From contig JBDRGF010000141.1 in the NCBI GenBank assembly GCA_043818055.1, forward strand, positions 22,119-86,118: a stretch of DNA of 64,000 nucleotides, written 5' to 3'. Positions 8,018 to 64,000 of the stretch are shown here, one piece after another (the stretch's first letter is position 1; every line of letters starts with the position of its first letter). The stretch comes from Pseudomonadota bacterium (lineage in GTDB: Bacteria > UBA10199 > 2-02-FULL-44-16 > JBDRGF01). Made by a program: the position numbers and the translations under genes. The notes under the pieces are model-generated. The model saw nothing but the letters and a program-made list of their open reading frames with translations. It was not told the origin of the DNA and did not search any database.

Positions 8018-8031
8018 GTTCTTTTCTTTGC

Positions 8032-12391: not shown

Positions 12392-12439
12392 CTCACCCCC
12401 ATCCGGCCGCTGGCCACCTTCCCCCGTAAAGGGGGAAGG
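12392..12439 (-). repeat. GGGGGAAGG double-hairpin REP-like element (short form, inverted)
   Basis: CTCACCCCCATCC GGCCGCTGGCC A CCTTCCCCC-GTAAA-GGGGGAAGG. This is the reverse complement of the 5235 and 8032 copies. Confidence 0.8.
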
Positions 12440-12527
12440 GCATAGATGTAGAGATTTTTTTAATGCAATTTTGTTGGGAGTTTATATACTGCGCAGAATA
12501 AATCAAGGAATCAGAATCGGGGGGATT

Positions 12528-26445: not shown

Positions 26446-26570
26446 AGGGGGTATCCATAGGTCAGGTGATGGTATTAGTCAAATTTTAGATGGCGAAGTG
26501 GACTATTTTTGAAATATTGCTTTATAATTGCGTTATGATAAGGAAACAGGTCGAAGCTAAAGGTAAATGC

Positions 26571-42339: not shown

Positions 42340-43449
42340 CTACGGATTCAACGCTTGCAAATATTCGAGGACAAACAATCCATCCTTCCTGATCAAAACA
42401 TCGTCAAACCATATCTCGCCGCCGCCAAGGTCTGTGGTCTGTCTTAGGACGATATCCCAGTGAATTTCGGAGTTGTTGCCGTTGAAGGCCATGTCATATG
42501 CCTTTCCCACTGCGAAGTGAATCGATCCGGCGATCTTTTCGTCGAAGAGGGTGTCCATCATCGGGACATTGACCTTGGGGTTCACGCCTATCGCAAATTC
42601 TCCAACGTATCTCGATCCTTCATCTCTATCGAGTATGCTTTTAAGCTTCTTTGCGTCGCCTGTCTCACAGCTCTCTTCAACAATTTTTCCATCTTTAAAT
42701 GTGAATTTTATACCGTCGAAGAGCTGTCCCTCTCTCACACTCGGCGTGTTGAATGAGATCGTTCCGTTTAAGGATTCCTTCACTGGAGCCGTGAATATTT
42801 CGCCATCGGGGATGTTTAGTTTTCCATCGCATTTGATAACAGGGATATCCTTGATCGAGAAGCTCAATTCTGTGCCGGGGCTCTTGATGCGTACCTTGTC
42901 GGTTTTTTTCATGAGTTCGAAAAGCGGGTCCATAGCCTTCGACATCTTTGAGTAGTCGATGAGGCAGCAGTCGAAGTAGAAATCCTCAAACTCGTGTGTG
43001 GACATCTTTGCAGACTGCGCGAAAGTTGGGTTTGGATAACGCATGACGACCCATCTGGTTTTGACGGAGCGGCATTCGCCATGTACCTTCTTCATTACAG
43101 TCGAAGAGAGGATCTTCATCTTTTCCGACGGGACATCTGCCATCTCGAGAACATTTTCCGAAGCGCGAATGCCGATATAACAATTCATCTGTTGCATCCT
43201 CGACAGTTGAAATTCTGCCTCAGCCTCAAACTGCTCTTTGGTGGCGTTCATAAGCTGAGCCCTGTTGAGCATGTCGTCGTGTAGAAGATAGAAGGGGAGG
43301 GCGCCATTTTTGTAGCATTCCTCTATGATAGCTTCGATTAAGGGGTAAGATCTAACGCCAGAGGCCTCTATCAGCACTTTATCGCCTGTTTTCGCTTCTA
43401 TTGAATAGTTGACGATGTTTTTCGCTAAGTTTCTGATTCTTTGATCCAT
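42340..43449 (-). CDS. M29 family aminopeptidase (AmpS/PepS-like)
   Basis: MDQRIRNLAKNIVNYSIEAKTGDKVLI start and the IHWDIV region near the C-terminus. About 370 aa. ATG 43449 has SD AGGAGGA. Confidence 0.82.
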   Translation of the reverse strand: MDQRIRNLAKNIVNYSIEAKTGDKVLIEASGVRSYPLIEAIIEECYKNGALPFYLLHDDMLNRAQLMNATKEQFEAEAEFQLSRMQQMNCYIGIRASENVLEMADVPSEKMKILSSTVMKKVHGECRSVKTRWVVMRYPNPTFAQSAKMSTHEFEDFYFDCCLIDYSKMSKAMDPLFELMKKTDKVRIKSPGTELSFSIKDIPVIKCDGKLNIPDGEIFTAPVKESLNGTISFNTPSVREGQLFDGIKFTFKDGKIVEESCETGDAKKLKSILDRDEGSRYVGEFAIGVNPKVNVPMMDTLFDEKIAGSIHFAVGKAYDMAFNGNNSEIHWDIVLRQTTDLGGGEIWFDDVLIRKDGLFVLEYLQALNP

Positions 43450-43527
43450 TACATCCTCCTGCCTGTTTGTTGATAACACTGCATATTAGCCCATATGATA
43501 TCGGTTAGGGTTTTACAAGCTACAAAT

Positions 43528-46569: not shown

Positions 46570-48471
46570 TTATTTCCCCGGTGCTGTTGTTGGAATGGGT
46601 TGATGTTTTTGTAAATTCTCCCAAACTATTTGCATCTGTTTATGAATTGTTTCTAAGTCATGTTTGATGGTTGAAAGTGCATGCTGAAAAGTGTCAGGTC
46701 TTTTCCCGCGATCATTTCTTTGTATGGGCGGAGTACTGGTCAGCGCTGTGTTAGTATTATCCCGATCTATTACTTCAGGGAGGATCTGTTCGGAGGGCGG
46801 GGGATTAAGCATGATCTCTTCCAGAATCGTCTGGCTTTGTGTTGATAATTCCAATTCTTCAAGCAAAGCCATTCTATAATCCTGTTCAGGAAATGCTGAT
46901 GATGAGGAAAGAAAGATTCTTAGGTTGTGAGTTATGAATCTAAGTGATTCGAAGATGGTGCCAAAAAGCATTGTAAATTGAAAAGGGAAACCGACAGGGT
47001 TTTTTGCCGACCTCTTCTGCTCATCAAGCAAAGGAACGATTGAGAGGGACTTTATTCCTTCAGCAAATGAAATTATAGCGTGCGCCATAAGCAGGATGTC
47101 TTGCGTAAAACTCTTTTTATCAGCAGTGAAGGATGCAAGACAGTTTGCTACAAAGCTTAAGGAAATCAGAAGGTTCAAAGGGTTGTCTTTGTCAATTGAA
47201 TGTTGTAGCTGTTCGTAATAATTATCAGGAAAATCAATTGATAAAGAATAGCGAGCCGCTTCTGATAGCAGATAACCTAAAAGCAGAAGATCATTTGTTT
47301 TAATCGATGCATTCTTTATGGACAAAATTGAGCTAAGGGTTGAATTCAATTCTTTCAAGAAAGGTTCAAGAGTTTTGAGTTTATGTTCATCAGGCTCTAA
47401 TCTGTTGATCTCTTCCTGACTCCTCTTGAGTTTATGGAAATATAAGAGTGCGCGTGTCAAAAAGAAAAGAAATTTTCCTGTTTCTGAGATGTTTTGTGTC
47501 AATTTATCAAGTGCTTTGATGTAGAAATTGACCATTGTAAAAAAAGCTGAATTGTTGTGCCAATTGACAAATGATTTTTTTGAAAGCTCAAAAATACGGG
47601 TGATTATTTTTTCCGCGTCGTTATCTTCAAGCATACAGATCTGATCGAGAGTGATCTTAGCTGATTCGTGGAATAATCTTTCAAATTTTTTCGTTTGATT
47701 TAGAAAATTCTCATTTGGTTCTTTTTCCTTAGTTTTCAGGGATCTTGCGATTTCATTTGTATTATTCAAGATTTGTGAAAGAAAACCAAGATATCCTGCC
47801 TCTGAGAGATGTTGTTGCTCAAGGGCGCCAGGTCCATCGAAAAATCTTTCTGAGTGATAGTGTTCGCGAACTGCATCATGTTGTTTTAATAGAATTTTCA
47901 GACGCATTTTTGGGCTTTGAGGGTAGATCGATGAAATTCCCTGATTAAACCAATCAAGCGCCTGAATGCGCAATCGAGTAAATGAGTCCGGTTCAAAACT
48001 TTCGAGTACAGCTTGCGCAATATTCCAGTTGCTTACCTGTGCAGCTCTTCCGAAATCTTTTTTTAATGCTTCTAATTGCTCTGGTTCGGATAATATTATA
48101 TATGAAGATGTTATTTCCCTTTGCATAAACCTTCCGAGGGCACTGTCAACATGTGAACAGAGAGCCATCATGAACAACTCCCTATCCCTCCCGGCCATAA
48201 ATGCTTCTTGTATTGGTTGAACATAGGAATTTGGGATTAAGGATGGTGGATCGTTTTCTCTCCTCGATACTATTGTATCATCAGGTGTGAAATGACTTAG
48301 CAGAGGATGTTTTAGCGTTGGTTCGTTTGTTGCCAATATAGTTTCCGGATGGGATTGAACAAATTGCGATGGGGGTGCCAGCTTGGGTTCCTGAGTTATT
48401 GTCTGTTGAGCATTGGGAGTAGGTGGAATTCCAATAGCAGTTGTTATTATGGGACTCTTTGGTCCTGTCAT
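46570..48471 (-). CDS. Orphan ~633-aa predicted all-helical protein with Pro-rich N- and C-termini
   Basis: ATG 48471 is preceded by GGGGGAAACC. ATG 48483 is an alternative. No recognisable motif. Confidence 0.6.
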   Translation of the reverse strand: MTGPKSPIITTAIGIPPTPNAQQTITQEPKLAPPSQFVQSHPETILATNEPTLKHPLLSHFTPDDTIVSRRENDPPSLIPNSYVQPIQEAFMAGRDRELFMMALCSHVDSALGRFMQREITSSYIILSEPEQLEALKKDFGRAAQVSNWNIAQAVLESFEPDSFTRLRIQALDWFNQGISSIYPQSPKMRLKILLKQHDAVREHYHSERFFDGPGALEQQHLSEAGYLGFLSQILNNTNEIARSLKTKEKEPNENFLNQTKKFERLFHESAKITLDQICMLEDNDAEKIITRIFELSKKSFVNWHNNSAFFTMVNFYIKALDKLTQNISETGKFLFFLTRALLYFHKLKRSQEEINRLEPDEHKLKTLEPFLKELNSTLSSILSIKNASIKTNDLLLLGYLLSEAARYSLSIDFPDNYYEQLQHSIDKDNPLNLLISLSFVANCLASFTADKKSFTQDILLMAHAIISFAEGIKSLSIVPLLDEQKRSAKNPVGFPFQFTMLFGTIFESLRFITHNLRIFLSSSSAFPEQDYRMALLEELELSTQSQTILEEIMLNPPPSEQILPEVIDRDNTNTALTSTPPIQRNDRGKRPDTFQHALSTIKHDLETIHKQMQIVWENLQKHQPIPTTAPGK

Positions 48472-48700
48472 GGTTTCCCCCATTTTGAGAACTTAATTTG
48501 AAAAACGAATCAATTGAAAAATGAGAATGGCTCAGATTTATCCAATAAGCGATTTAAACTATATTTCTTATATTGAGATATTTTGCAAGAAGAAAAGTTT
48601 TTATCATGACTTTACATTTATGTTTTTTTTGTGCATATATCTGTTATCAAATTTTGGCGAATTCGTTGTAATACCATTCCCAAATAGTTTTTCTGATAAT

Positions 48701-48768: not shown

Positions 48769-50214
48769 ATGCAATCTTTAGGGTTAACTACTAATCACTT
48801 ATCATTTATGGGGGCGGTGGTTTTGCATAACCCCAAATTGGTTCAGTTTTATGGTGGGGCGGCACCTGAGGCCATAGAGAGACTCTCAGAAAGTTTGCAG
48901 GGAGGGCAATATCCCGAACAATTGCGTTCTTTGGCAGGAGAATATCAAAGAAGATTTATTTCAGGTGCATTTTCATTAGGACTTACAAGGTTTAAGGATC
49001 CTAAATCATCAGTGCCATCCGATGATCCTGAGATGTTTAGGGAAAAATTATTAGAACTCTCAAATTCATCTGATCCGACGCGTATAAGAGCGGCATTGCA
49101 AGAGGGTTTTGAACCGACTGTCGAGAAAATCGAAATTGCAGTTGATCTTCTTTTGAATGAGCTGGGAAGAGTGTTTAATCCATCTGATGAGCGTGAAGTT
49201 TTAATGACTTATCTGAGTAAAATTGAAGAACATGCTGCTATTCATAGCGATGATGATAGAGCGATTATGTTGATGTGGAGAATTAAAGAGTTGATCGATC
49301 AGATATCTGAAAAACAGCTCTCTAAGGTTTTACAAAACATTGTAAGTTTAATGATTGAAAAATATAGATTTCCTGATGCTGCAGCTCAGGCGATATTAGA
49401 GCGTGTGAATAGAATTTTTCCCGATGCAGATCATTATGCTGCAGGAATTATGTTGGATGAAATTCTCAAGCTAGATGGTTTTACTCCCTCAGTCGTTATT
49501 CCTACATCAAGGGTGTTGGATAATATTGGCGAAGGAGAGCGGGCTTTGAATGCAATTAACAGAGTTCGTAATGAACCTATGACACCGCTTGAAAAATTAT
49601 TGCAAAGAGTTGTCGAGGCCTCTATCGGTTTGAAAAACAAAAATGGAGCATTGATTGAAAAGGCGAGAAAGGGTCTGCTGCATGAACTCAAGCTTTCCAG
49701 TCGATCGTTGCTTGGTGATCGTGGTGACATGCTGGATAAAGATGAGTCTGGATACGATCATGCTAAATCAACTCATTTTGCAGAGAATGAGAAATCAGAA
49801 GGGCGTATGTTATGGTATGAAGGTGCTATGTTGGTGGCTGAATGTTATAAGGCAATTTGGGCTGATAAATTATCCCGCGCGTTTAGCATGATGTTATCAA
49901 GAAATCACGCTACTTCTTTGACTGCAGAAGATCTGGAAGAATATTTATATCAGGAGGTGAGAGAGGTTGGTGTAGAGGTTTTTGCATTGCTTGTACATGC
50001 CGATCAATATTTGCGTGGATGGATTTTAGAACAGGCCGAGGATGATAAATCTGTTTTATATAATTGGCAGCAGAGGATGAGGGAAAATATCAACACCTGG
50101 ATGAATGAGGAGGGGAAGGCATATCCCAAACTAATTGATGATGTCCTGCAAAATGTTAGCGTTTTACATACAAAGGGAGATCAGCTTCCGAATATTTTTT
50201 CTCTCATGCAATAA
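48769..50214 (+). CDS. Orphan 481-aa predicted helical protein
   Basis: Long ORF with SD GGGGGATCT-ATG. No motif recognised. Its 3' end overlaps the convergent ade gene by 11 nt. Confidence 0.6.
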   Translation: MQSLGLTTNHLSFMGAVVLHNPKLVQFYGGAAPEAIERLSESLQGGQYPEQLRSLAGEYQRRFISGAFSLGLTRFKDPKSSVPSDDPEMFREKLLELSNSSDPTRIRAALQEGFEPTVEKIEIAVDLLLNELGRVFNPSDEREVLMTYLSKIEEHAAIHSDDDRAIMLMWRIKELIDQISEKQLSKVLQNIVSLMIEKYRFPDAAAQAILERVNRIFPDADHYAAGIMLDEILKLDGFTPSVVIPTSRVLDNIGEGERALNAINRVRNEPMTPLEKLLQRVVEASIGLKNKNGALIEKARKGLLHELKLSSRSLLGDRGDMLDKDESGYDHAKSTHFAENEKSEGRMLWYEGAMLVAECYKAIWADKLSRAFSMMLSRNHATSLTAEDLEEYLYQEVREVGVEVFALLVHADQYLRGWILEQAEDDKSVLYNWQQRMRENINTWMNEEGKAYPKLIDDVLQNVSVLHTKGDQLPNIFSLMQ

Positions 50215-53424: not shown

Positions 53425-53547
53425 GCCCTTCCCCCTTTTGACGGGGGAAGGTGGCCTCAATGATTTTTCCGCTTTGCTCTGCCCCCTTGACGGGGGAAGA
53501 TGCCCTTGCCATGTCGCATGATATGGCGCAGGGCAGAAGGGGGTGAG
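53425..53547 (+). repeat. Long (double) form of the GGGGGAAGG REP-like element
   Basis: CCTTCCCCC-N7-GGGGGAAGG (53427-53451) and CCCCC-TTGAC-GGGGG (53482-53496), then GCCCTTGCCATGTCGCATGATATGGCGCAGGGC and AGAAGGGGGTGAG. An inverted copy lies at 59198-59320. Confidence 0.85.
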
Positions 53548-53625
53548 TTCCTTTGGCCGTAAAAGCTCTAATCAACATTGATAAAGCATTTCTTCTATGA
53601 TAAAGCTGTGTATTTGGAGGATTAT

Positions 53626-54211: not shown

Positions 54212-54240
54212 TTGACATTCTTGTTGATAGTGATTTTAAT
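54212..54240 (+). promoter_or_regulatory. Candidate sigma70 promoter of the three-gene kinase operon
   Basis: TTGACA (54212-54217), 17-nt spacer, TTTAAT (54235-54240). ATG lies 49 nt downstream. Confidence 0.45.
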
Positions 54241-54288
54241 AGAACTTAAGTTTAACTCTTTTAAGGTTCGTTCAATCCAGAGGAAAAA

Positions 54289-55626
54289 ATGGGAATTGAA
54301 AATAGCAAACATCGTTTGAGTGTCGGTTTTCTTGCCAATCCAATCATGTTTGGTGATTCTGAGTTCGAAGGAGTGTATCAGTTTCGCTTTGGCCCGAAGA
54401 AATTCAGGATGGGGGCCGGGCTGTCTGTTCAATGGTCTCCTTTAAAAGGATCGCGATCTAAGGTCGACATTTCAACTGCGACATCGAGTGAGGCTGAGAG
54501 GGCTGGCATATCGGGATTTGTCTATGAGAAGAGCAATCGTATATCTGCTTTGTTGAATTTCAGCGGGACATGGTATTTTTATAAAGGCAGGCATGGACAG
54601 GTGGGAGTTGGAGGAAAGCTGGGTGCGGGTATTTCAAACAGCTATGGAGATCTGATAATCCAGGCTGCTCAGAGCGGGCTCAGTTCAAACATCTCCGAAT
54701 TATCATTGCCAACCGACGGATCGATGATATGGGCGATGGTGCTTAGAGGAGGGTTATTTTCCGAATATGTTTTCCCGAGATCATTTATGGCCCTTTATAT
54801 CAAAGCTTCAGCCGAGGCACCAATCTCAATTCAAAGCAACATTGCAAAACCGTTTACGCTTTTATTTCAAGTAGGTGGTGGCATTGTAGTCTATCTTGAT
54901 AAGATAGTAAAAAAAGCCGGTAAGAATGGACATAGAATACCGCAATTCATGCCAACGACAAATGGCACAGCATCAAAACCGACGACACAATCACTTTCAA
55001 ATGAATCATTTCAAAAACTTCACAAAGCCTTTCTTGCTGAGAACCAGTTGGCATTCAGGGCCGCTATTGCAGCTAAACAGGCAAAAACTGATCTAAAGAG
55101 AGATTCAATATTGGAAGCTAAAAGACTTCTTGCTGAAACAGACAATGCTACGAAAAAAAGAAAGAAATTAGAAAAACAATATCCTCGTCTATCAAATGGA
55201 CAGAGAAAACAATTGTACAAATTAGTAGCGACTGTGCCCATACAAAAGATGAACACTAAAAATGATATTAATCAAGCTGAACAAACTTTGCGCTCAAGGC
55301 TTCAGGCTAGAAAGAGAGTTTTAATTGCAAAAAAGAGTGTTCGTAAAGGTGCGTTATCATCAGCTGAGAGGGGTTTGTCTGAAGCAAGATCAGCCTTGAG
55401 GGTTGCGACAACTGGTGATGAGGTTCTGAAACACGAAGGTATGAAAAAAGTTGCGAGGGCAGCAAAATCATTGAAATCAAGTATTCAAACGCTGATTACA
55501 AAGATTAAGGCAAATAATAAATCTCTTAGCGAACTGAGAAAATTGAAAAGTGAAGCTGATTCTCTGTATATCACTGCAAAAAGACTTCACGCAAAATCAA
55601 AAAGAATCAAACGAGATATGCTATGA
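54289..55626 (+). CDS. Orphan protein: Gly-rich beta-strand-patterned N-domain (~210 aa) plus highly basic coiled-coil C-domain
   Basis: SD GAGGAAAAA. The N-terminus has alternating hydrophobic patterns and G-rich turns (GQVGVGGKLGAGISNSYG) with no signal peptide. The C-terminus is K/R/A/L-rich and heptad-like. Confidence 0.6.
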   Translation: MGIENSKHRLSVGFLANPIMFGDSEFEGVYQFRFGPKKFRMGAGLSVQWSPLKGSRSKVDISTATSSEAERAGISGFVYEKSNRISALLNFSGTWYFYKGRHGQVGVGGKLGAGISNSYGDLIIQAAQSGLSSNISELSLPTDGSMIWAMVLRGGLFSEYVFPRSFMALYIKASAEAPISIQSNIAKPFTLLFQVGGGIVVYLDKIVKKAGKNGHRIPQFMPTTNGTASKPTTQSLSNESFQKLHKAFLAENQLAFRAAIAAKQAKTDLKRDSILEAKRLLAETDNATKKRKKLEKQYPRLSNGQRKQLYKLVATVPIQKMNTKNDINQAEQTLRSRLQARKRVLIAKKSVRKGALSSAERGLSEARSALRVATTGDEVLKHEGMKKVARAAKSLKSSIQTLITKIKANNKSLSELRKLKSEADSLYITAKRLHAKSKRIKRDML

Positions 55627-56423
55627 CGACATCCTGTGATAAATTTATTAAACCAAAGAATATCGATTCCTCCAGAAGTGCTTATGAGTGGTGGTTGAAA
55701 CGAAGTTTAAATATCGAGACACCAGTTGCAGATGTAGGTAGTAACGGGTTGAATATCTCCATTTTTCAGGATGCAACACTGTTAACACGTTTTAAGAGAA
55801 AAATTTCAAAAAATCCTCTACTTCTCAGACATTTTAATCAGAAGGTGCTGGGGTTCGTCAACGATTTCAGAAATGATCTCAACAAAGATGGTAATAAAAA
55901 TATTATAACTAAAAGCGAAGTCAGTGCTTTGGCTAAGGATATAAAGTCCCAAAATGCAGGCGATGTTATCGTCGATCTCTCAGCGGTGATATATCTCATT
56001 AAAAATATCAATAGGATTGATTCACGACGGCTTCAAAAAGCCAGCACGATGCGTGAGGCCTATCTCGCTTTTCATTACTCCGGAAAAAAGTTGGTGCCCG
56101 ATTCGGTTTCGCGGCAAAGTTACAACCCGAAAATGATTGGTTGCTTTCTTGGTATGACGAAGTCCAACCCCAAATTAACACGTAACTGGAGGAGGGTTGA
56201 GAGATGTGTCCTTAACGGAACAGAACGCGCCTCCTTCCATGCACTTTTCAAAGCGCTGCAGCCTAAAATTAAAAAACCTCCTGTAATCAAACAAATCAAA
56301 AAAACATTACCAAAAACCAAGACGAAAAAGGTGAGTTGGGGTAGGAGATCGTTTGGTCTTGTATTAGCATTTTTAGCACTACCATTAGCAATCCCCCTAA
56401 TCATTTACAAGTTGTTTAAATAA
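55623..56423 (+). CDS. Orphan tail-anchored protein (single C-terminal TM helix)
   Basis: ATGA start/stop overlap with the upstream gene. C-terminal FGLVLAFLALPLAIPLIIY follows the basic stretch KKTLPKTKTKK. Confidence 0.55.
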   Translation: MTTSCDKFIKPKNIDSSRSAYEWWLKRSLNIETPVADVGSNGLNISIFQDATLLTRFKRKISKNPLLLRHFNQKVLGFVNDFRNDLNKDGNKNIITKSEVSALAKDIKSQNAGDVIVDLSAVIYLIKNINRIDSRRLQKASTMREAYLAFHYSGKKLVPDSVSRQSYNPKMIGCFLGMTKSNPKLTRNWRRVERCVLNGTERASFHALFKALQPKIKKPPVIKQIKKTLPKTKTKKVSWGRRSFGLVLAFLALPLAIPLIIYKLFK

Positions 56424-56432
56424 AAGATTATT

Positions 56433-58262
56433 ATGAGACCGATAATTAAAACATCGACGAATTTTCAACACTCATTTTCTCCGACTAAGACTCGAGATAT
56501 TCCCTCTGTCATTCCCGCGGAGGCCTCAAGTCATGCGACGGGGCAATCGGAAATCCGGTATCCTATAGTTCGGTCGACGACAACGTTGGATCCTTATCTA
56601 CATAGTGATGACAAACTTGGGGTTTTTCGTGTTCAGTATGCCGAATCGAACACTTCAGTCCAAAGTAGCGCCTATGCAACACTCCTCTCAGGTGCTATGT
56701 TATTTGGACAAACGAGCACTGATAAATTTTGGGACTTGATGGAGGATCCCGGCTTTTGGGTTTACTGTGGCGTAGGCATAATTATCGAGTTAGCTGTTGC
56801 TGGTTATATTATAGCCAAAAGAAGAACAAAGAAAGCTGAAGCAGCAAAACCTTTGGAAGAGGGACCAGAACCACAGACTCTAGAGGATATCAATTCTGAT
56901 GGCCCTCATATTCCAGTAGTTGTACTCCCAAAAAACGTTCTTGATGAAGCATCAACAGGGCTTCACCGTGAGACTGGCTTAGCAATTCAAGGTATTGCAC
57001 CGGAAGATTATCCTGAGGAACAAACCTTTCAAACATATTCATTATCTGCAGCTATGGGACAGCCTTCTTCTATACCTCCTTCTGAATATGTTGTAGAAGA
57101 ACATACACTTGAAGGAGTTGCTCTTGCAGACGTTGCTGCTCCTGTAATGGATGATGGTCTCACAGTTCAGGGTGTTGTGAGCCCATTCGCTGAGGGAAAT
57201 ATAGAATGTCCAAGTTGTCAGACTGCTAATACTCCCGATAACAAATTTTGTTCAAAGTGCGAGTTTCCTCTTCGACTTTTGGATGGCAAATATCGCCTCG
57301 TAGAAAAAATAGGCGAAGGTGGAATGAGCGAGATATACAGGGCAGAGCATACTGAGTTTAAAAGAAATCTTGCACAAGCAGCCAATGGAGGCGCTCGCTC
57401 TGTATTGGGGGAGGGAGCCTATACTCGTGTCATCAAGGTTATGAAGTTAGATTCTATGGACACAAGTGCGGCAAAGATGTCACGGGCAAAAATTGTTGAG
57501 GATTCATTTAGAAGCGAAGTTGCAACATTGAGTGCTCTTTCATCGAAGAGCCCTCATATCGTTCAGATACACGATGTTGGCTCGAGCTGGATTGGGCTCT
57601 ACTATGTCATGGAGTATCTACAGGGCGAGACCCTTTTTAATTTTGTTGATGCTCAAGGCAATGTTGTTTCTCTTCTTAGAGAAGGAAGGTTTCAGGAAGT
57701 ATTGGAACGAGTCGATCTTATAGCGCATATTTTGGAACAGATTTGTGATGCTCTCGCTGTCTGTCATAAGTTCAATGTGGCACATCGGGATCTTAAACTT
57801 GAGAATATCATGCTCCTCAAAAATGAACGGGATGATCATTTTGTTAAAGTAATAGATTTTGGCATAGCAGCAATTTTATCTCAAAAGGATGGAAATAAAC
57901 AATCTCCCATAGCATCAGGTACACCTGAGTATATGCCGATGGAACAATTGGGTGGAGAACCGGTTGTTCAATCCGATATTTATGCCCTTGGGGTTATTGT
58001 ATATCATCTTTTAACGGGTGGTTATCCAATCCCCAACGCAAGCGAGTTAGTAAAGAACCAACAAATTCTCTCATTGCTGACCGATCTTGCAAAGGAGCAT
58101 CAAAAGCCAGTTACAGAGTATGATGTGCGTTTTGAGCCCTTTATGGAATTGTTGAAAACGGCTTTTAAGACGAATTATACAGATAGACATCGAAATGTGG
58201 CTGAATTTATGTATGCGCTGAAGAGCGCCGTAGAGCGCTTTAAAGAGTCTTTGAAAAAATAG
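56433..58262 (+). CDS. Hanks-type Ser/Thr protein kinase with N-terminal region, TM helix and zinc ribbon preceding the kinase domain
   Basis: TM FWVYCGVGIIIELAVAGYIIA. Zinc ribbon CPSCQTANTPDNKFCSKCEFPL (57207-57260). Kinase motifs IGEGGMSEIY, VIKVMK, HRDLKLENIML, DFGIA and GTPEYMPME. Confidence 0.85.
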   Translation: MRPIIKTSTNFQHSFSPTKTRDIPSVIPAEASSHATGQSEIRYPIVRSTTTLDPYLHSDDKLGVFRVQYAESNTSVQSSAYATLLSGAMLFGQTSTDKFWDLMEDPGFWVYCGVGIIIELAVAGYIIAKRRTKKAEAAKPLEEGPEPQTLEDINSDGPHIPVVVLPKNVLDEASTGLHRETGLAIQGIAPEDYPEEQTFQTYSLSAAMGQPSSIPPSEYVVEEHTLEGVALADVAAPVMDDGLTVQGVVSPFAEGNIECPSCQTANTPDNKFCSKCEFPLRLLDGKYRLVEKIGEGGMSEIYRAEHTEFKRNLAQAANGGARSVLGEGAYTRVIKVMKLDSMDTSAAKMSRAKIVEDSFRSEVATLSALSSKSPHIVQIHDVGSSWIGLYYVMEYLQGETLFNFVDAQGNVVSLLREGRFQEVLERVDLIAHILEQICDALAVCHKFNVAHRDLKLENIMLLKNERDDHFVKVIDFGIAAILSQKDGNKQSPIASGTPEYMPMEQLGGEPVVQSDIYALGVIVYHLLTGGYPIPNASELVKNQQILSLLTDLAKEHQKPVTEYDVRFEPFMELLKTAFKTNYTDRHRNVAEFMYALKSAVERFKESLKK

Positions 58263-58336: not shown

Positions 58337-59137
58337 ATGAATTATCTCATCGATTACCACATCCACACAAGACTATCCAACGATTCAAATGCCGATCCGT
58401 TTGAAGTCTGCGAGGCTGCTGTCAAGGCTGGTTTAAACGAGATCGCTCTCACAGATCACTGCGAGTTCGGACCTAAATACCCCGGATTTGCCGATCACAA
58501 AGAATGTCAGAAAATATTGGAAGCATGCCGCTCTAAGTTTGGAGATAAATTGACGATCAGGGCCGGCATTGAGACAGGCGATGTTCATCTTTTCATGGAT
58601 AAGGTGAAGGATATCCTGAATGCCTTCGATTACGACTTCGTCATCGGCTCTGCACACTATGGATTTGGGCTGAAGCCTGCTTGGGAAAAGGAGTTCTTTG
58701 ATGTCGGAAGGAGAGAGGCCTTCGAGGGGTATTTCAAACAGGTGGATGTGCTGGCCAAGGTCGGCGATTTCGATATCTTAGGACATATCGATCTAATCAA
58801 ACGGGATGCCTTCAAACATGGCGTAGAATACGACGGCCCCAAACCTTACGAGCATATTATCCGCTCAATTTTAAAGAGCATAATAGAGCGGGGTAAGGGG
58901 CTAGAGATAAATACTTCTCCCCTGAGGCGCGGGCTTCAAGAGCCCTGTCCGGATCAGGAGATTTTAAAGTGGTATCATGAAATGGGAGGAAGCATCATAA
59001 CATTCGGATCAGATGCCCACAAACCGGCGGATGTCGGCGCCGACATTCGAAAGATGATGAGGCTCGCAAAATCGATCGGCTTCAAAACATTCGCAACATT
59101 TGAACGAAGGAAGTTAAAGCTGATTAAAATTTTCTGA
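58337..59137 (+). CDS. PHP-domain phosphatase, HisJ/histidinol-phosphatase family
   Basis: IDYHIHT N-terminal metal motif, LTDH, GSAHY, GHIDL and FGSDAH. Confidence 0.75.
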   Translation: MNYLIDYHIHTRLSNDSNADPFEVCEAAVKAGLNEIALTDHCEFGPKYPGFADHKECQKILEACRSKFGDKLTIRAGIETGDVHLFMDKVKDILNAFDYDFVIGSAHYGFGLKPAWEKEFFDVGRREAFEGYFKQVDVLAKVGDFDILGHIDLIKRDAFKHGVEYDGPKPYEHIIRSILKSIIERGKGLEINTSPLRRGLQEPCPDQEILKWYHEMGGSIITFGSDAHKPADVGADIRKMMRLAKSIGFKTFATFERRKLKLIKIF

Positions 59138-59148
59138 AAAGAAAAAAA

Positions 59149-59346
59149 GCGCATGTGGCATGTAGTTAAAATTAAACCCCCAGCCGGCTAAAAGCAATCA
59201 CCCCCTTCTGCCCTGCGCCATGTCATGCGACATGGCAAGGGCATCTTCCCCCGTCAAGGGGGCAGAGCACAAAGGAAAAGTCATTGGAGCCACCTTCCCC
59301 CTGCAAGCATGGGGAAGGGCGAATTACATGCCACATGCTACATGCG
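59149..59346. repeat. Composite nested element: GCGCATGTGGCATGTAG arm, long GGGGGAAGG module (inverted), TACATGCCACATGCTACATGCG arm
   Basis: The inner module 59198-59320 is the reverse complement of 53425-53547. By manual alignment, 72 nt carry a single mismatch and the rest is diverged. Confidence 0.85.
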
Positions 59347-59926: not shown

Positions 59927-59943
59927 TATAGATTACCCCAGCC

Positions 59944-62900
59944 ATGACTGAAAAATTTTTTCTAGGCATCGACCTCGGCTCGGTCTCTGTCAAACTCGCT
60001 ATCTGGAGCGATGAAGAGGGTTTGATTTACTCCTCATACGATCGCGTTGCGGGGGATGCCCAGCTTCGTCTTCAGGAGAGTTTAGATAGAGCTATTCAGC
60101 AGTTTCCCACACTCGAATTCAACTCGGTTGTAGCTACAGGTAGTGGCAGGGGGTTTGTTGGAGAGGCTTTGGGCGTTGGCACCGTCAACGAGATAACCGC
60201 TCAGGCGATGGCTGTTAGGAAACTTTACCCGGCAATACGTTCTGTTATCGAGATCGGTGGGCAGGATTCGAAACTCATTATCTTGTCCGATTCGACCGAG
60301 AAGGGTGTTCTCGATTTTCAGATGAATGAGCTGTGCGCCGCTGGCACAGGAGCTTTCCTCGATCGTCAGGCAGCACGGCTCGGTCTCAATATCTCAGAAT
60401 TTTCTCATCTCTCATTACAGTCGGAGCATCCTGTAACGATAGCCGGCAGATGTGCAGTATTTGCCAAATCGGATATGACCCATCATCAGCAGGAGGGAAG
60501 GGCTCTCTCCGATATTATCGCGGGATTGAACGATGCGCTGGCCAGAAGCTATCTCTCGAACGTGGTTCGCGGCAGAACATTGATGAAGCCTGTATCTTTT
60601 CAGGGGGGCGTTGCTGCCAATTTGGGACTGATCAAGAGCTTTAAACGGATATTGAATCTGAACGATGACGAGATAGTTGTGCCGAAGGAATATAGAGTTA
60701 TGGGCGCGACAGGTTGTGCCATATATTCCATAGAAAATTCAGATTCAAAAAAAGTTACATTGAAAGAGCTGATCGATCGCCTTAAGAACTATAGATCACA
60801 ACTTCTAAATAAAAAATCGCAGATCGAATCGAAGCAATTGGCAGAGGTGTCAGGCTCAGCTTTGGAACCCGATTTTAACAGGATGAAGGTTAGGGGTAGA
60901 TCTCTCGGCATCGATATAGGATCTGTCTCTGTGAAAATCATTTTGATAGACGAAAATGGAGTTGTGTTCGACGATTATCGCTATTCAAACGGCAAGCCCC
61001 TCGAAGTCTTGTCAGAGATGCTTTCACAGGCCGATCTAAATGATGTTCAAACTGTCGGCGTGACCGGAAGCGGAAGAAATCTGGTGGGAAAACTTGTCGG
61101 CGCCGATGTAATAAAAAACGAGATCACCGCTCAATCTCATGCTGTCATAACTCTATTTCCCGGGATCGATTCGATAATAGAGATCGGCGGTCAGGATGCA
61201 AAATTTATTCGAATTGAAAACGCCGCTGTTAGCGATTTTGTCATGAATCGCATCTGTGCCGCGGGCACAGGGGCTTTTTTGCAGGAGCAGGCCTCTCGTC
61301 TTCATATCGATTTGAATGAGGAGTTTTCAACGCGGGCATTCAACAGCCGCTCGCAATCAGATCTGGGTTCGAGATGTACTGTTTTCATGGAATCGGATCT
61401 CGTCTCCCATCAACAGCAGGGGGATTCGATAGATGATCTATGTGCCGGGCTCGCCTTCAGCATCGTCGATAATTATCTCGAGAAGGTGGTTGCGAGGAGT
61501 CGTTTCGGCTCTAAAATCATCTTCATAGGTGGTGTGGCAAGAAATCTCTCTGTCGTCAGCGCCTTTGAGAGTGAGCTGAATCTCAAAATCAGGACGTCAC
61601 GCATAGGTCATCTGACAGCTGCAATAGGTGTGGCGATTTTAGCTGCTGATAGCGCGGATATAGTCTCCATAAAAGTAGATCGCTATCTTGATCTCAAACA
61701 TCGTTTTCGAAATCTGGAATACTTTTTCTGTGAGGATTGCGACAACCGCTGCCGGATTATCCGTGTCAATGATGAGGGTGGCGCTACATTCGGCGGACGA
61801 TGCGGAAGATGGGATGAATCCAGGATAAAAATATCAAAACCTGAAAGTGAAAAAGACTCTTTAATCAGGAGGCGCAGTGCTTTGTTGGAGAGTTTTGCCA
61901 ATAATGTGGACTCCGTTTCGAGGAAGAGGGTTGGAATACCGAATGCTCTGCTCTATTTCGATAATTTTCCAGCCTGGGCAACTTTTTTTAATGAGATCGG
62001 GCTCAATGTGGTAGTCTCTCCTCCCACAAGTGAGGACATTTTAGCGGCCGGACAGGAGCATCTTGTGGTTGAGCCGTGTCTTCCAATGAAGGCGTATGTT
62101 GCGCATCTCGTCTGGCTCGATAAAAATGAGAAGCTCGACTATCTCTTCGTCCCATCCATAGTTGTATTAGGGAGGGACAAAAAGGGTCGCGAGACTCATC
62201 ATTGCCCATATATTCAATCGGCATATCAATTTGTTCGACCGGTTGTCAAAACACCCATTCTGAATCCAAAGATAAATTGGAGATGGCACCCTGAGGATGA
62301 GAAGAGGGAGATGATTAAACTCGGCATGAGCCTGGGTGCAAGCAAATCCCAATCCGAATCGGCGTGGGAAAGGGCATCCCAGGCGCTTCAAAAATTCAAG
62401 GATGAGTTGAGGAATGTCGGCGCAACTACCCTTAAACAAATGGGAAGTAATGAAAGAGTCTTTTTGCTCCTCGGTAAGGACTATAATTTGAACGACGCGA
62501 AGCTCAATTCCAATGTGGTGGATATATTGGAAAGGTGCGGAGAACGGGTTATAACGCAGGATATGCTGGTTGATGATGAGGCCAATTACGATAATGCCTA
62601 TCGTACAATGAATTGGACGCATGGTAAGGAGATGTTGAATGCCGCAACTATAGCTTCAAAGGATGACCGTATCATGCCGGTTTTGATAAGTAATTTTGGA
62701 TGTGGCCCCGATTCATTTACACTCAGATATCTACAGGAGATCTTATCAGGCCGCCCCTTTTTGTATCTTGAAGTCGATGAGCATGCCTCAAGCGTTGGGA
62801 TGGAGACAAGGATAGAGGCCTTTTTGGATAGCCTAAAATCGAATGTGCCTTCTGCACAAATAGGACCGACTACTTTTATACCACCAATGGGTATAAAAAG

Positions 62901-64000
62901 AGTGATTATGACTAACTTCTCATTGCATGGATACGCCTTTGCTGCCTCTCTCAGTATGATGGGTTTCGAGTCGATTCTTGCGCCGCTCCCCGATGAGGAG
63001 TCATATAATCTCGCTTCGAACTATCTGACAGGGGGAGAGTGCCATCCATTTGCACTGATGCTCGGTGATTTTCTAAAGATAGTCAGGTCGGGTAAAATTG
63101 ACATGACAGATACGTGTTACCTCGTGCCTGAGCCGAATTCATGTAGAATGGGACAGTTCGGCACCTACATGCGTATGATTGCGAGGGAGGCGGGAATAAA
63201 GGTTCCAATTTTTACAAGAATCGAGGATCTGGCAGAATCCGGAGGGCTAAATTCAAAGACAGCTCATATGCAGTCTATTATGCTTTTTTGGGAGATGATG
63301 AGGAGCTGCGATTTTCTCTCACAAAAATATTATGAGACCAGGGCGTATGAGAGAAATGGGGGCGATACAGATAAGGCTCTCAAGGATGTTCATGATATTT
63401 TGGAGGAATCGATAAAGAGTGGGAAGCCCAAGGCCGGGATAACCAGAGCCTTGAAGAGGTTTGAATCTGTAGAATCGGATAGATCGAGGCAACTCATTTC
63501 AATTGGTATCACAGGTGATTACTATACTCGTGTTTGCGATTTTGCGAATTCTAATATCTTTAAGGATCTGGAACGAATGGGTGGAAAGGTGATGTTGCCC
63601 TCCACCATGACCGATTTTGTGAAGTACGATATCTCCTGCAGGGTGCGTCAGGCCTTCTACCTGAAGAAAGCCAGGGCTTTACTTCAAAATCTGGCGATCA
63701 AGGGAGTAGTTAGATATAAGGAGATCATGGCTTTCAGGGCGTTTGAAGGGCACCTCGATTATGATGTACCCATGTCACCAGATAAATACTCCAAAAGAAG
63801 TGAAGAATTTATCTCTTCAAAGATGCATTGCGATCTCGTAGGGGCGACTGCAGCTATACTGGAGCAGATAGACAACGGCGCTAAGGGAATTCTGAACCTG
63901 ATCACTTTCCAATGTACATACGGCACTATTATAGAGGCGATTCTGAAAAATATGGATAAAGCATATCCAGATATTCCAAAGTTAACGCTCATCTTCGAAG
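59944..64000 (+). CDS. Fused double BcrAD/BadFG-type ATPase (activase) + DUF2229-like + 2-hydroxyacyl-CoA dehydratase-like protein, 3' end beyond window
   Basis: I translated frame 1 from ATG 59944 to base 64000 and met no stop. It shows two actin-fold ATPase repeats (GIDLGSVSVK...EIGGQDSK...MNELCAAGTGAFL and GIDIGSVSVK...EIGGQDAK...MNRICAAGTGAFL). A Cys cluster CEDCDNRCRI...GGRCGRWD follows. A dehydratase-like C-terminal part then follows (FGCGPDSF...EVDEHA). Confidence 0.85.
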   Translation, partial: MTEKFFLGIDLGSVSVKLAIWSDEEGLIYSSYDRVAGDAQLRLQESLDRAIQQFPTLEFNSVVATGSGRGFVGEALGVGTVNEITAQAMAVRKLYPAIRSVIEIGGQDSKLIILSDSTEKGVLDFQMNELCAAGTGAFLDRQAARLGLNISEFSHLSLQSEHPVTIAGRCAVFAKSDMTHHQQEGRALSDIIAGLNDALARSYLSNVVRGRTLMKPVSFQGGVAANLGLIKSFKRILNLNDDEIVVPKEYRVMGATGCAIYSIENSDSKKVTLKELIDRLKNYRSQLLNKKSQIESKQLAEVSGSALEPDFNRMKVRGRSLGIDIGSVSVKIILIDENGVVFDDYRYSNGKPLEVLSEMLSQADLNDVQTVGVTGSGRNLVGKLVGADVIKNEITAQSHAVITLFPGIDSIIEIGGQDAKFIRIENAAVSDFVMNRICAAGTGAFLQEQASRLHIDLNEEFSTRAFNSRSQSDLGSRCTVFMESDLVSHQQQGDSIDDLCAGLAFSIVDNYLEKVVARSRFGSKIIFIGGVARNLSVVSAFESELNLKIRTSRIGHLTAAIGVAILAADSADIVSIKVDRYLDLKHRFRNLEYFFCEDCDNRCRIIRVNDEGGATFGGRCGRWDESRIKISKPESEKDSLIRRRSALLESFANNVDSVSRKRVGIPNALLYFDNFPAWATFFNEIGLNVVVSPPTSEDILAAGQEHLVVEPCLPMKAYVAHLVWLDKNEKLDYLFVPSIVVLGRDKKGRETHHCPYIQSAYQFVRPVVKTPILNPKINWRWHPEDEKREMIKLGMSLGASKSQSESAWERASQALQKFKDELRNVGATTLKQMGSNERVFLLLGKDYNLNDAKLNSNVVDILERCGERVITQDMLVDDEANYDNAYRTMNWTHGKEMLNAATIASKDDRIMPVLISNFGCGPDSFTLRYLQEILSGRPFLYLEVDEHASSVGMETRIEAFLDSLKSNVPSAQIGPTTFIPPMGIKRVIMTNFSLHGYAFAASLSMMGFESILAPLPDEESYNLASNYLTGGECHPFALMLGDFLKIVRSGKIDMTDTCYLVPEPNSCRMGQFGTYMRMIAREAGIKVPIFTRIEDLAESGGLNSKTAHMQSIMLFWEMMRSCDFLSQKYYETRAYERNGGDTDKALKDVHDILEESIKSGKPKAGITRALKRFESVESDRSRQLISIGITGDYYTRVCDFANSNIFKDLERMGGKVMLPSTMTDFVKYDISCRVRQAFYLKKARALLQNLAIKGVVRYKEIMAFRAFEGHLDYDVPMSPDKYSKRSEEFISSKMHCDLVGATAAILEQIDNGAKGILNLITFQCTYGTIIEAILKNMDKAYPDIPKLTLIFE

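What the first reader, a model, noticed from the sequence alone, without database searches (positions are those of the whole stretch)
54212..58262. Three-gene coupled operon: signal-less beta-rich/basic coiled-coil protein, tail-anchored protein, and a reversed-topology zinc-ribbon Ser/Thr kinase
Seen:
- A TTGACA-N17-TTTAAT promoter candidate is followed by three ORFs. ORF 1 and ORF 2 overlap through ATGA, and 9 nt separate ORF 2 from ORF 3.
- Protein 1 (445 aa) has about 210 aa of alternating, Gly-turn-rich sequence typical of beta-sheet or barrel proteins, but no signal peptide. About 230 aa of very basic heptad-like sequence follow.
- Protein 2 (266 aa) has a single TM at its extreme C-terminus after a poly-Lys patch.
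- Protein 3 (609 aa) has about 100 N-terminal residues, then a TM helix, an acidic/Pro linker and a CxxC-N13-CxxC zinc ribbon. A complete Hanks kinase follows (G-loop, VIKVMK, HRDLKLEN, DFG, GTPEYMPME).

Established:
- Classical bacterial PknB-type kinases place the kinase N-terminal to the TM helix, with the sensor outside.

Inference:
- Here the order is inverted, giving a short extracytoplasmic N-terminus and a cytoplasmic ribbon plus kinase.
- Both partners look membrane-associated and have no motifs I can name.
- The trio could be a membrane-proximal signalling or effector module not matching described systems.
Basis: partly seen in the sequence, partly recalled or inferred. Interest (0 to 1): 0.7.

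Follow-up and report, generated by a model that had tools for sequence, protein, structure and literature searches.

The report
Orphan three-gene membrane kinase operon
A real three-gene operon, found in only two environmental DNA fragments, pairs a membrane-anchored protein kinase built in the unusual anchor-first order with two strongly basic partner proteins that resemble nothing known. It looks like a lineage-specific signalling module, but its function is still open.

Summary
Three translationally coupled ORFs (54289-58262, + strand) encode:
- P1 (445 aa): a beta-type N-half and a polybasic helical C-half, with no canonical signal peptide.
- P2 (266 aa): tail-anchored and polybasic.
- P3 (609 aa): N-tail, one TM, acidic linker, CxxC-N10-CxxC zinc ribbon, then a complete Hanks kinase.

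P1 and P2 have no match in Pfam, NCBIfam, PADLOC, PHROGs or PDB. Across billions of proteins, P1's only relative is one 30%-identical protein. That protein lies on a second metagenomic contig from the same sample, which carries the same three genes in the same order and still coupled (P2' 45%, P3' 32% identical).

The ribbon+kinase module is common in Myxococcota-like bacteria, but there the TM follows the kinase. The anchor-first order is rare but already described: 1 of 42 bacterial STK families, and 5 of the 80 nearest kinases here.

The most likely reading is a complex at the cytoplasmic face of the inner membrane. The two basic partners would dock on the kinase's acidic linker or on anionic lipid, and act as its dedicated substrates or regulators. 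Function is unproven. Defence, envelope-spanning and effector readings are weaker. This is a new variant of a known kind, of moderate interest.

The parts
54212..54240 (+). Promoter-like candidate: TTGACA, 17-nt spacer, TTTAAT
   Evidence: Read directly. The -35 is perfect. The -10 lacks the conserved A at position 2 and is not listed by the scanner. Site density in the region is at chance level.
54279..54284 (+). Shine-Dalgarno-like AGAGGA, 4 nt upstream of the P1 ATG
54289..55626 (+). P1 gene (445 aa, pI 10.4), an orphan two-domain protein
   Evidence: ORF. It matches only itself in the 5.8-billion-protein search and has one remote homolog, P0123, in the exhaustive HMMER search (E 2.8e-15). 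There is no Pfam, NCBIfam, PADLOC, PHROGs or PDB match.
54289..54903 (+). P1 N-half (aa 1-205): Gly-rich, beta-amphipathic, no canonical signal peptide
   Evidence: Beta periodicity z 2.5 (2.8 in P1'). N-terminal hydrophobic maximum 1.63, in the cytoplasmic range. AF2 could not model it (pLDDT about 30). The N-terminus is conserved in P1'.
55000..55620 (+). P1 C-half (aa 238-444): polybasic long helices
   Evidence: AF2 helices at pLDDT 70-93. Net charge +38 for aa 206-445, and +44 in P1'. Alpha periodicity z 2.3 and 4.3. Foldseek against PDB finds only generic helical bundles, with E no better than 0.08.
55623..56423 (+). P2 gene (266 aa, pI 10.4), a tail-anchored orphan protein. Its start overlaps the P1 stop (ATGA).
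   Evidence: It is 45% identical to P2' on L083 (E 2e-65). No family or PDB match.
56262..56348 (+). P2 polybasic juxtamembrane patch (aa 214-242)
   Evidence: Sequence. The Lys/Arg-rich character is kept in P2'.
56352..56408 (+). P2 C-terminal tail-anchor helix (aa 244-262)
   Evidence: KD maximum 2.48. AF2 helix 242-265 at pLDDT 69-88. P2' also has a hydrophobic C-terminus.
56433..58262 (+). P3 gene (609 aa): N-terminally anchored zinc-ribbon Hanks-type Ser/Thr kinase
56433..56753 (+). P3 N-tail (aa 1-107), predicted extracytoplasmic. Only the juxtamembrane ~30 aa are conserved.
   Evidence: It has no hydrophobic signal-like segment. Conservation with P3' is limited to about aa 60-107. The location is inferred from the positive-inside rule.
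56754..56816 (+). P3 single TM helix (aa 108-128), followed by KRRTKK
   Evidence: KD maximum 2.08. W109, C112, V114, G124, R130, R131 and K133 are invariant in P3'.
56835..57197 (+). P3 acidic, Pro-rich linker (aa 135-255)
   Evidence: Net charge -19, pI 4.1. The P3' linker is -9, pI 4.3.
57201..57278 (+). P3 zinc ribbon CPSC-N10-CSKC plus the FPL motif (aa 257-282)
   Evidence: Weak Pfam hits to DZR, Zn_ribbon_3 and Zn_Ribbon_1. The four Cys and F-P-L are invariant across 8 ribbon-kinases.
57285..58232 (+). P3 Hanks kinase catalytic domain (aa 285-600)
   Evidence: Pkinase PF00069, E 2.4e-39. K335, E362, HRDLK-N (451-458), DFG (475-477), TPEYMPME, D515 and R585 are conserved in P3'. The closest solved structure is StkP (E 1.8e-21).

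Best explanation
This is a lineage-restricted, translationally coupled three-gene signalling module that works at the cytoplasmic face of the inner membrane.

P3 is a catalytically competent Hanks-type Ser/Thr kinase. Its zinc-ribbon+kinase unit belongs to a subfamily common in Myxococcota-like bacteria. Here that unit has been re-anchored by an N-terminal TM helix in place of the usual C-terminal one. This leaves a ~107-aa N-tail outside the membrane, and an acidic linker, the ribbon and the kinase inside.

P2 is tail-anchored in the same membrane, with a 240-aa polybasic domain facing the cytoplasm. P1 is a cytoplasmic two-domain protein with a beta-rich N-half and a polybasic helical C-half.

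Inferred mechanism: the two strongly basic partners are held at the membrane by anionic lipid and/or by the kinase's acidic juxtamembrane linker. They act as the kinase's dedicated substrates and/or regulators. This would resemble the way coiled-coil adaptors such as GpsB and DivIVA serve PASTA kinases, or the way GlnX and GlnH serve PknG. Phosphorylation would lower their positive charge and could release or reorganise them.

Shown: the gene structure, the coupling, conservation of the trio as a unit, the domain order, intact catalytic residues, and the conserved charge pattern.

Inferred: the topology, formation of a complex, the substrate relationship, and the biological output, which is unknown.
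For: - Coupled ORFs.
- A second locus, L083/L084, has the same order: P1' (E 3e-31), P2' (45% identity, E 2e-65) and P3' (32% identity over N-tail, TM, linker, ribbon and kinase, E 7e-72). It keeps coupling through an 8-nt gap and an ATGA overlap, but has a different upstream gene.
- The kinase is above the Pfam cutoff and its catalytic residues are invariant.
- The TM has an acidic N-flank and a KRRTKK C-flank.
- The tail anchor is conserved.
- The charge pattern is conserved in both trios: P1 C-half +38/+44, P2 +29/+27, P3 linker -19/-9.
- The ribbon+kinase subfamily normally has a C-terminal TM.
- The window is ordinary diderm chromosome: SurA-like chaperone, SLT, MurJ, a lysine pathway and translation genes.
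Against: - There is no direct evidence that the three proteins interact or that P1 or P2 is phosphorylated.
- No PP2C phosphatase or FHA protein lies in the 64-kb window.
- The P1 N-half and P2 could not be modelled (pLDDT about 30 and 45), so their folds and any enzymatic activity are unknown.
- Only two loci exist, both from one sample. They could be paralogs within one genome, which would weaken the comparative argument.
- The promoter and the operon boundaries are not established. No terminator lies between P3 and the downstream PHP gene.
Confidence: 0.5

Rival explanations
1. Envelope-spanning sensor. P1 would be an outer-membrane beta-barrel with a cryptic or weak export signal and a periplasmic helical domain, an OmpA-like layout. 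That domain would contact the periplasmic N-tail of the kinase, so the trio would relay an outer-membrane or periplasmic signal to the cytoplasmic kinase.
For: - The P1 N-half is Gly-rich with significant beta-amphipathic periodicity in both homologs.
- The last predicted strand ends in an aromatic motif (GIVVYL / GIIFYI), and a conserved GDSE follows a mildly hydrophobic stretch at aa 10-22.
- P3 has a ~107-aa predicted periplasmic N-tail whose juxtamembrane part is conserved.
Against: - P1's N-terminal hydrophobicity (1.63 and 1.72) falls among cytoplasmic proteins, far below the window's real signal peptides (2.5-2.95).
- That N-terminal stretch alternates like a beta-strand rather than forming a uniform h-region.
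- No outer-membrane-protein Pfam model matches, even at E <= 10, and no PDB barrel matches.
- A +38 helical domain fits a cytoplasmic or lipid-binding role and complements the cytoplasmic acidic linker of P3.
Confidence: 0.12
2. Anti-phage defence or abortive-infection module. The kinase would sense infection, and P1/P2 would act as membrane-directed effectors.
For: - The kinase matches PADLOC mad6 and PD-T4-6 models (E 9e-49 and 8e-45).
- The trio has lower GC (39-43%) than its flanking metabolic genes (47-48%), sits in a different context in the second locus, and is extremely patchy.
- It is bracketed by 122-nt REP-like inverted repeats.
Against: - The PADLOC kinase models match Hanks domains generically. 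The curated NCBIfam cutoffs are missed by a wide margin: MAD6 119 against 460, and PglW 62 against 990.
- P1 and P2 hit nothing in PADLOC or PHROGs.
- The neighbours are purine/pyrimidine salvage and HisJ-type PHP genes, not a defence island.
- No relatives exist in viral contigs, phage records or plasmids.
- The repeats belong to a dispersed family found elsewhere in the window.
Confidence: 0.15
3. Secreted effector set of a host-associated bacterium. This would comprise a eukaryote-like kinase and two orphan proteins delivered into a eukaryotic host.
For: - The proteins are orphans and one carries a Hanks kinase.
- P1 starts MGIENSK, which resembles the eukaryotic N-myristoylation pattern MGxxxS.
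- A TLC-like nucleotide transporter ORF and several other large orphan ORFs lie in the window.
Against: - The myristoylation-like start is not conserved, since P1' starts MEIKNKH.
- P2 and P3 carry membrane anchors typical of the cell's own membrane.
- The kinase's nearest relatives are ordinary Myxococcota-type membrane STKs.
- The window encodes full lysine biosynthesis and housekeeping functions, unlike a reduced symbiont.
- The TLC match is partial.
Confidence: 0.05

Closest known systems
Zinc-ribbon + Hanks kinase subfamily of Myxococcota/Bdellovibrionota-like bacteria (for example P0005, P0006, P0007, P0008, P0011, P0018; loci L085-L164)
   Same: A CxxC-N10-14-CxxC ribbon with an invariant F-P-L motif sits immediately before the G-[KR]-Y-R-L start of the kinase. 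Shared kinase motifs include YYVMEYL and HFVKVIDFG. Identity is 34-42% over the ribbon+kinase region.
   Different: In these relatives the ribbon is at the extreme N-terminus, and the TM, where present, lies C-terminal to the kinase after a long linker. P3 and P3' instead carry a ~250-aa N-terminal extension (N-tail, TM, acidic linker) and end right after the kinase. None of the relatives has a P1- or P2-like neighbour, by sequence or by feature.
CCM1 family of bacterial STKs (Atlas of the Bacterial Serine-Threonine Kinases, bioRxiv 10.1101/2025.01.12.632604)
   Same: [quoted passage not shown]
   Different: CCM1 is described from Chloroflexota, Cyanobacteria and others, with FHA or PQQ-DH variants. 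No zinc ribbon or partner genes are described. Membership could not be tested because no model of the family was available.
PASTA kinases (PknB/StkP/PrkC) with the coiled-coil membrane adaptors GpsB and DivIVA/Wag31
   Same: A membrane-anchored Hanks kinase whose activity and substrates involve small, basic, coiled-coil, membrane-associated cytoplasmic proteins. This rests on my own knowledge of those systems. StkP is the closest solved kinase domain.
   Different: P3 has no PASTA repeats and the TM is on the opposite side of the kinase. P1 and P2 have no DivIVA/GpsB domain. The NCBIfam PASTA-kinase cutoff is not met (142 against 450).
PknG and its glnX-glnH-pknG operon in Actinobacteria (PMC8546545 was listed but not read; the operon description is from my own knowledge)
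   Same: A three-gene operon with the kinase last. A Cys4 metal-binding (rubredoxin-like) module directly precedes the kinase domain. The two upstream genes encode membrane or envelope partners that feed the kinase.
   Different: PknG is soluble and has a TPR domain. GlnH is a lipoprotein solute-binding protein and GlnX is a 4-TM protein. None of these domains is present here. The similarity is in layout only.
Kinase-based defence genes (PD-T4-6, MADS Mad6, BREX PglW)
   Same: Their Hanks kinase domains match P3. Some PD-T4-6 profiles also cover the ribbon region from aa 256-260.
   Different: The curated cutoffs for Mad6 and PglW are missed by a wide margin. No accompanying defence genes are present. 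P1 and P2 are absent from PADLOC.

Membership tests
Hanks-type (eukaryote-like) Ser/Thr protein kinase, Pfam PF00069 | Pkinase profile above the gathering score | tested here: met
   135.7 bits against a cutoff of 31.7, E 2.4e-39
Hanks-type (eukaryote-like) Ser/Thr protein kinase, Pfam PF00069 | Catalytic residues: G-loop, VAIK Lys, alphaC Glu, HRDxKxxN, DFG, APE-like Glu, subdomain IX Asp and XI Arg | tested here: met
   GEGGMS, K335, E362, H451-R-D-L-K-x-x-N458, D475-F-G...MPME504, D515 and R585 are all invariant in P3'.
PASTA kinase (Stk1/PknB family, NF033483) | Kinase, then TM, then extracellular PASTA repeats, with the curated score met | tested here: not met
   142.4 bits against a cutoff of 450. 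There is no PASTA domain and the TM precedes the kinase.
Defence kinases MADS Mad6 (NF047741) and BREX PglW (NF033442) | Curated whole-protein score | tested here: not met
   119 against 460, and 62.3 against 990
PD-T4-6 single-gene defence kinase (PADLOC) | Match to the PD-T4-6 profiles in a defence context | tested here: inconclusive
   The profiles match (E down to 8e-45), but they have no curated cutoff and match Hanks domains in general. The context is metabolic genes.
Reversed-order bacterial STKs (CCM1 of the bSTK atlas) | [quoted passage not shown] | tested here: met
   TM at 108-128 and kinase at 285-600. This tests only the architecture.
Reversed-order bacterial STKs (CCM1 of the bSTK atlas) | Sequence membership in the CCM1 clade | not testable with these tools
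   No CCM1 model or sequences were on hand. The nearest relatives found are Myxococcota-type kinases.
Tail-anchored membrane protein (P2) | A single TM within about 30 residues of the C-terminus, and no N-terminal signal or TM | tested here: met
   The only hydrophobic segment is 244-262 of 266. The N-terminal maximum KD is 0.57. The feature is conserved in P2'.
Outer-membrane beta-barrel (OMP_b-brl/OmpA-like) for the P1 N-half | A cleavable Sec signal peptide | tested here: not met
   The heuristic N-terminal hydrophobic maximum is 1.63 (1.72 in P1'), against 2.5-2.95 for the exported and anchored proteins of the window. SignalP was not available.
Outer-membrane beta-barrel (OMP_b-brl/OmpA-like) for the P1 N-half | Match to an OMP barrel profile or a solved barrel | tested here: not met
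   No Pfam family at E <= 10 for either homolog's N-half. No PDB barrel by phmmer or profile search.
PknG-type kinase | Rubredoxin-like Cys4 module before the kinase, plus a C-terminal TPR domain, in a soluble protein | tested here: not met
   A Cys4 ribbon is present, but there is no TPR and nothing follows the kinase, and the protein is membrane-anchored. Sequence relatedness to PknG itself was not tested.

The most novel reading that the evidence does not exclude
P1 is a new kind of Sec-independent, beta-rich membrane-active protein whose polybasic helical tail is controlled by phosphorylation. The N-terminally anchored kinase and the tail-anchored P2 would gate its insertion or assembly from the cytoplasmic side. 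That would make a kinase-switched pore, lysis or membrane-remodelling device with no described counterpart.
Probability: 0.1. Interest if true: 0.8.

Novelty: new variant of a known kind. Interest (0 to 1): 0.42.

Why it matters
Most bacterial Hanks kinases have no known dedicated partners, and their substrates are hard to identify. This operon hard-wires one kinase to two co-translated proteins, conserves that set as a unit, and carries a conserved charge complementarity. That offers a compact, testable kinase-substrate or kinase-adaptor system.

It also documents a natural re-anchoring of a common ribbon+kinase cassette from a C-terminal to an N-terminal TM. This bears on how bacterial receptor-kinase topologies evolve.

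P1 and P2 define two new protein families. The value is limited because only two loci are known, both from one uncultured-community sample, and no fold or function could be assigned.

Tried and rejected
Sequence searches for P1 and P2:
- Word-indexed search of 5.8 billion proteins: each matched only itself.
- Exhaustive HMMER search of 1.84 billion representatives for P1: one remote homolog.
- Pfam, NCBIfam, PADLOC and PHROGs, including sub-domains at E <= 10: nothing.
- PDB by sequence and by 2-sequence profiles: nothing.

Structure:
- AF2 on P1 modelled only the helical half.
- Foldseek against PDB gave generic helical bundles, best E 0.08.
- AF2 on P2 was poor (pLDDT 45), so no fold search was run on it.

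Locus scans with the P1 and P2 alignments:
- Genomes: none.
- Metagenomes: only the L083 contig again.
- Viral contigs: none.
- Phage and plasmid records: none.

Partner search near 84 related kinases, by tblastn and by sequence-independent features: none.

Taxonomy:
- PNPase has at most 57% identity to mixed phyla.
- LeuRS, IF-2 and P3 are singleton 90%-identity clusters from one NCBI record; PNPase as read here was not in the collection.
- The REP-like hairpin core turned out to be cross-phylum and not diagnostic.
- The organism remains unplaced.

Rejected ideas:
- A mobile cassette defined by the flanking 122-nt inverted repeats, because they belong to a dispersed family.
- A non-coding gap at 59.8-64 kb, which is in fact one long ORF running off the window.
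- The upstream 268-aa gene next to P0011 as a P2 analog, because it is a Cys-rich secreted protein with no similarity.

Full report
**1. What is in the sequence**

- P1: 54289-55626, 445 aa.
- P2: 55623-56423, 266 aa.
- P3: 56433-58262, 609 aa.

P1 and P2 overlap through ATGA. Nine nt without an obvious Shine-Dalgarno sequence separate P2 from P3.

Upstream there is TTGACA (54212), a 17-nt spacer, TTTAAT, and an AGAGGA ribosome-binding site. The -10 hexamer lacks the conserved A at position 2. The consensus scanner therefore does not list it, and it finds promoter-like sites at chance density (9 against 10.6 +/- 3.6). It finds no terminator between P3 and the next gene. The promoter and the operon ends are therefore only candidates.

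The window is ordinary bacterial chromosome. It carries:
- IF-2, PNPase, LeuRS, TruB, the DNA polymerase III delta subunit and a tRNA-Met;
- MurJ, SLT and a SurA-like chaperone;
- an aspartokinase/asd/dapF/lysA cluster.

The trio sits between purine/pyrimidine salvage genes (adenine deaminase, an NCS2-type permease, a cytidine/TadA-like deaminase) and a HisJ-family PHP phosphatase. Its GC content (39-43%) is lower than that of these neighbours (47-48%), but similar to other orphan ORFs in the window.

**2. The three proteins**

*P3* is a bona fide Hanks kinase. Pkinase scores 135.7 bits against a cutoff of 31.7, and every catalytic motif is intact. It has a single hydrophobic helix at aa 108-128. 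The N-flank of the helix is acidic and the C-flank is KRRTKK. By the positive-inside rule, and because a kinase needs ATP, this places the N-tail (aa 1-107) outside and the rest inside.

A Pro-rich acidic linker follows (aa 135-255, net charge -19), then the ribbon C259-x2-C262-x10-C273-x2-C276. The motif F278-P279-L280 comes next and leads straight into the kinase. Nothing follows the kinase domain.

*P2* has one hydrophobic segment (aa 244-262) four residues from its end. A Lys-rich patch precedes it. The remaining 240 aa have net charge +29.

*P1* has two halves:
- The N-half is Gly-rich with significant beta-type amphipathic periodicity.
- The C-half has net charge +38 and alpha-type periodicity. 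AF2 models it as long helices at pLDDT 70-93, while the N-half stays unmodelled.

P1 cannot be extended upstream, because the ORF begins at the first start codon after an in-frame stop. Its N-terminal hydrophobic maximum (1.63) sits among the window's cytoplasmic proteins. It is well below the window's real signal peptides and anchors (2.5-2.95).

**3. Are P1 and P2 known?**

They are not. P1 and P2 returned nothing from:
- Pfam, NCBIfam, PADLOC and PHROGs, including sub-domains at E <= 10;
- PDB by sequence or by profile;
- Foldseek on the confident helical half of P1, where the best E was 0.08 and the hits were generic bundles.

The P2 model was too poor to search with. In the 5.8-billion-protein index, each protein matched only itself.

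**4. The decisive comparative result**

An exhaustive HMMER search of 1.84 billion representatives found one relative of P1. This is P0123, 457 aa, E 2.8e-15, aligned end to end.

Its 4.26-kb contig is L083, which is the same as L084 and JGI Ga0180007_10028922. It comes from the same ENA sample as an exact copy of part of this window. The contig carries the same three genes in the same order:
- P1': 26-30% identical to P1.
- P2': 266 aa, 45% identical, E 2e-65, with the tail anchor retained.
- P3': 32% identical, E 7e-72, with the same succession of N-tail, TM, acidic linker, ribbon and kinase. It is cut off by the contig end.

Coupling is kept but redistributed. An 8-nt gap separates P1' from P2', and P2' overlaps P3' through ATGA. 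The upstream gene differs: it is a beta-propeller-repeat fragment rather than the deaminase.

The charge pattern is conserved in both trios:
- P1 C-half: +38 and +44.
- P2: +29 and +27.
- P3 linker: -19 and -9.

One caveat remains. The two loci may be paralogs within one genome or orthologs in two related organisms, and this cannot be decided from the data.

No further copies were found in any collection searched:
- 185,579 species genomes, scanned with the P2 and P1 alignments;
- JGI metagenomes, where only the same contig came back;
- IMG/VR viral contigs;
- phage and plasmid records.

**5. Where the kinase comes from**

The best relatives of P3 share only the ribbon+kinase part, at 39% identity or less. 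Six of them (P0005, P0006, P0007, P0008, P0011, P0018) begin with the same CxxC...CxxC-FPL-x4-G[KR]YRL unit. In these the four Cys and the FPL motif are invariant.

Where these relatives have a TM, it lies C-terminal to the kinase, which is the classical topology. Genomic relatives are overwhelmingly Myxococcota, with some Bdellovibrio.

A heuristic survey of the 80 nearest genomic kinases gave these counts:

| Feature | Number of 80 |
|---|---|
| TMs only C-terminal to the kinase | 60 |
| TMs only N-terminal (all multi-span) | 5 |
| No TM | 15 |
| Zinc ribbon present | 12 |
| N-terminal TM combined with the ribbon | 0 |

The top hit, P0004, has TM segments before each of its two kinase domains.

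The bSTK atlas states that a TM C-terminal to the kinase is the commonest architecture, seen in 25 families. It finds the N-terminal arrangement in only 1 of 42 families, CCM1 (bioRxiv 10.1101/2025.01.12.632604).

P3 is therefore a common cassette that has been re-anchored at the other end. That is unusual, but it is not a new principle.

None of 84 related kinase loci has a P1- or P2-like neighbour. This holds by tblastn and by a feature search for tail-anchored basic proteins or proteins with a basic C-half, where only the L083 positive control scored on both.

**6. Mechanism**

The best-supported picture is a complex at the cytoplasmic face of the inner membrane.

P3 would be anchored N-out/C-in, and P2 tail-anchored beside it. 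P1 would be recruited through its polybasic helices to anionic lipid and/or to the acidic linker of P3. P1 and P2 would serve as dedicated substrates or regulators. Phosphorylation would neutralise positive charge and so change membrane or linker binding. The conserved juxtamembrane and TM residues of P3, and the conserved tail anchor of P2, would allow helix-helix contact.

All of these steps are inference. Only the anatomy and its conservation are shown.

The weaker alternatives are set out in the Rival explanations section with their evidence. They are:
- an envelope-spanning arrangement with P1 as an outer-membrane barrel;
- a kinase-triggered defence or abortive-infection module;
- a secreted effector set.

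**7. Comparison, novelty and score**

By function, the module resembles membrane Hanks kinases that work with small coiled-coil membrane adaptors (PASTA kinases with GpsB/DivIVA). By layout, it resembles the glnX-glnH-pknG operon, which has a Cys4 module before the kinase and two envelope partners upstream.

It is a member of neither. The PASTA-kinase, Mad6 and PglW curated cutoffs are not met, and none of the accessory domains is present.

P3 is a new architectural variant of a known kinase subfamily. P1 and P2 are new families of unknown fold.

Interest is moderate. The module is real, conserved and experimentally tractable. Against that, it is known from two loci in one sample, its organism is unplaced, and no function can yet be assigned.

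Noticed in passing
window 5230-5282, 8027-8079, 12392-12446 (-), 53427-53559, 59185-59306 (-); transposase ORF 29926-30645 (+): This is a dispersed ~55-nt hairpin repeat with the core CCTTCCCCCT-N2-4-ACGGGGGAAGGTG followed by GGATGGGGGTGAG. There are 4 exact core matches in the window against 0 expected by chance. An IS200/Y1-type (RAYT-like) transposase ORF in the same window could mobilise it. The exact core also occurs in at least 106 stretches of genomes from many phyla: a Phycisphaerae MAG with many copies, Brevundimonas, Oscillospiraceae, Dehalococcoidia and Betaproteobacteria. Identity to the Phycisphaerae copies is 84-88% over 50-63 nt.
   Followed up: partly
window 53438-53559 and 59185-59306: Two 122-nt copies of that repeat (89% complementary) lie as inverted repeats. 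They bracket a 5.6-kb co-directional block of deaminase, trio and PHP phosphatase. This is probably two REPIN-like intergenic elements rather than the ends of a cassette, but inversion or mobility of the block was not tested.
   Followed up: partly
window 37165-39423 (+), 44737-46566 (-), 46570-48483 (-), 48769-50214 (+): These are four further large ORFs (481-752 aa) with no significant Pfam or NCBIfam family. They have low GC, with 35-40% measured for three of them; the 752-aa ORF was not computed. They lie just upstream of the trio region. They are not paralogs of P1, P2 or P3.
   Followed up: partly
window 26490-27878 (+): This is a 462-aa ORF with a partial match to the TLC ATP/ADP transporter family (PF03219, E 3.3e-15, C-terminal half only). 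It may hint at nucleotide scavenging. The rest of the window looks like a biosynthetically competent free-living diderm.
   Followed up: no
window 54289-54309 (P1 aa 1-7): P1 begins MGIENSK, which fits the eukaryotic N-myristoylation pattern MGxxxS. The homolog begins MEIKNKH, so the Gly2 is not conserved and the match is probably chance.
   Followed up: yes
window 59932-64000 (+): This stretch looks ORF-free in the ORF list. It is in fact one open frame of at least 1356 codons that runs off the window end, starting ...MTEKFFLGIDLGSVSVKLA. It has no Rfam match. This is an artefact of the listing, not a non-coding region.
   Followed up: yes
window 58337-59137 (+): A PHP-domain HisJ-family phosphatase gene starts 74 nt after P3, with no terminator in between. 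It is probably metabolic. Because some PHP proteins are protein phosphatases, co-transcription with the kinase would be worth checking. The second locus ends before this position, so conservation is unknown.
   Followed up: no
L271 (ena:ERZ27247931:k141_187536), L272: Two of the closest ribbon-kinases, P0018 and P0008, come from a sample with a nearby accession number (ERZ27247931). L271 also carries an M29 peptidase 50% identical to the window's (42340-43479). This suggests that related, equally unsampled organisms live in similar samples.
   Followed up: partly
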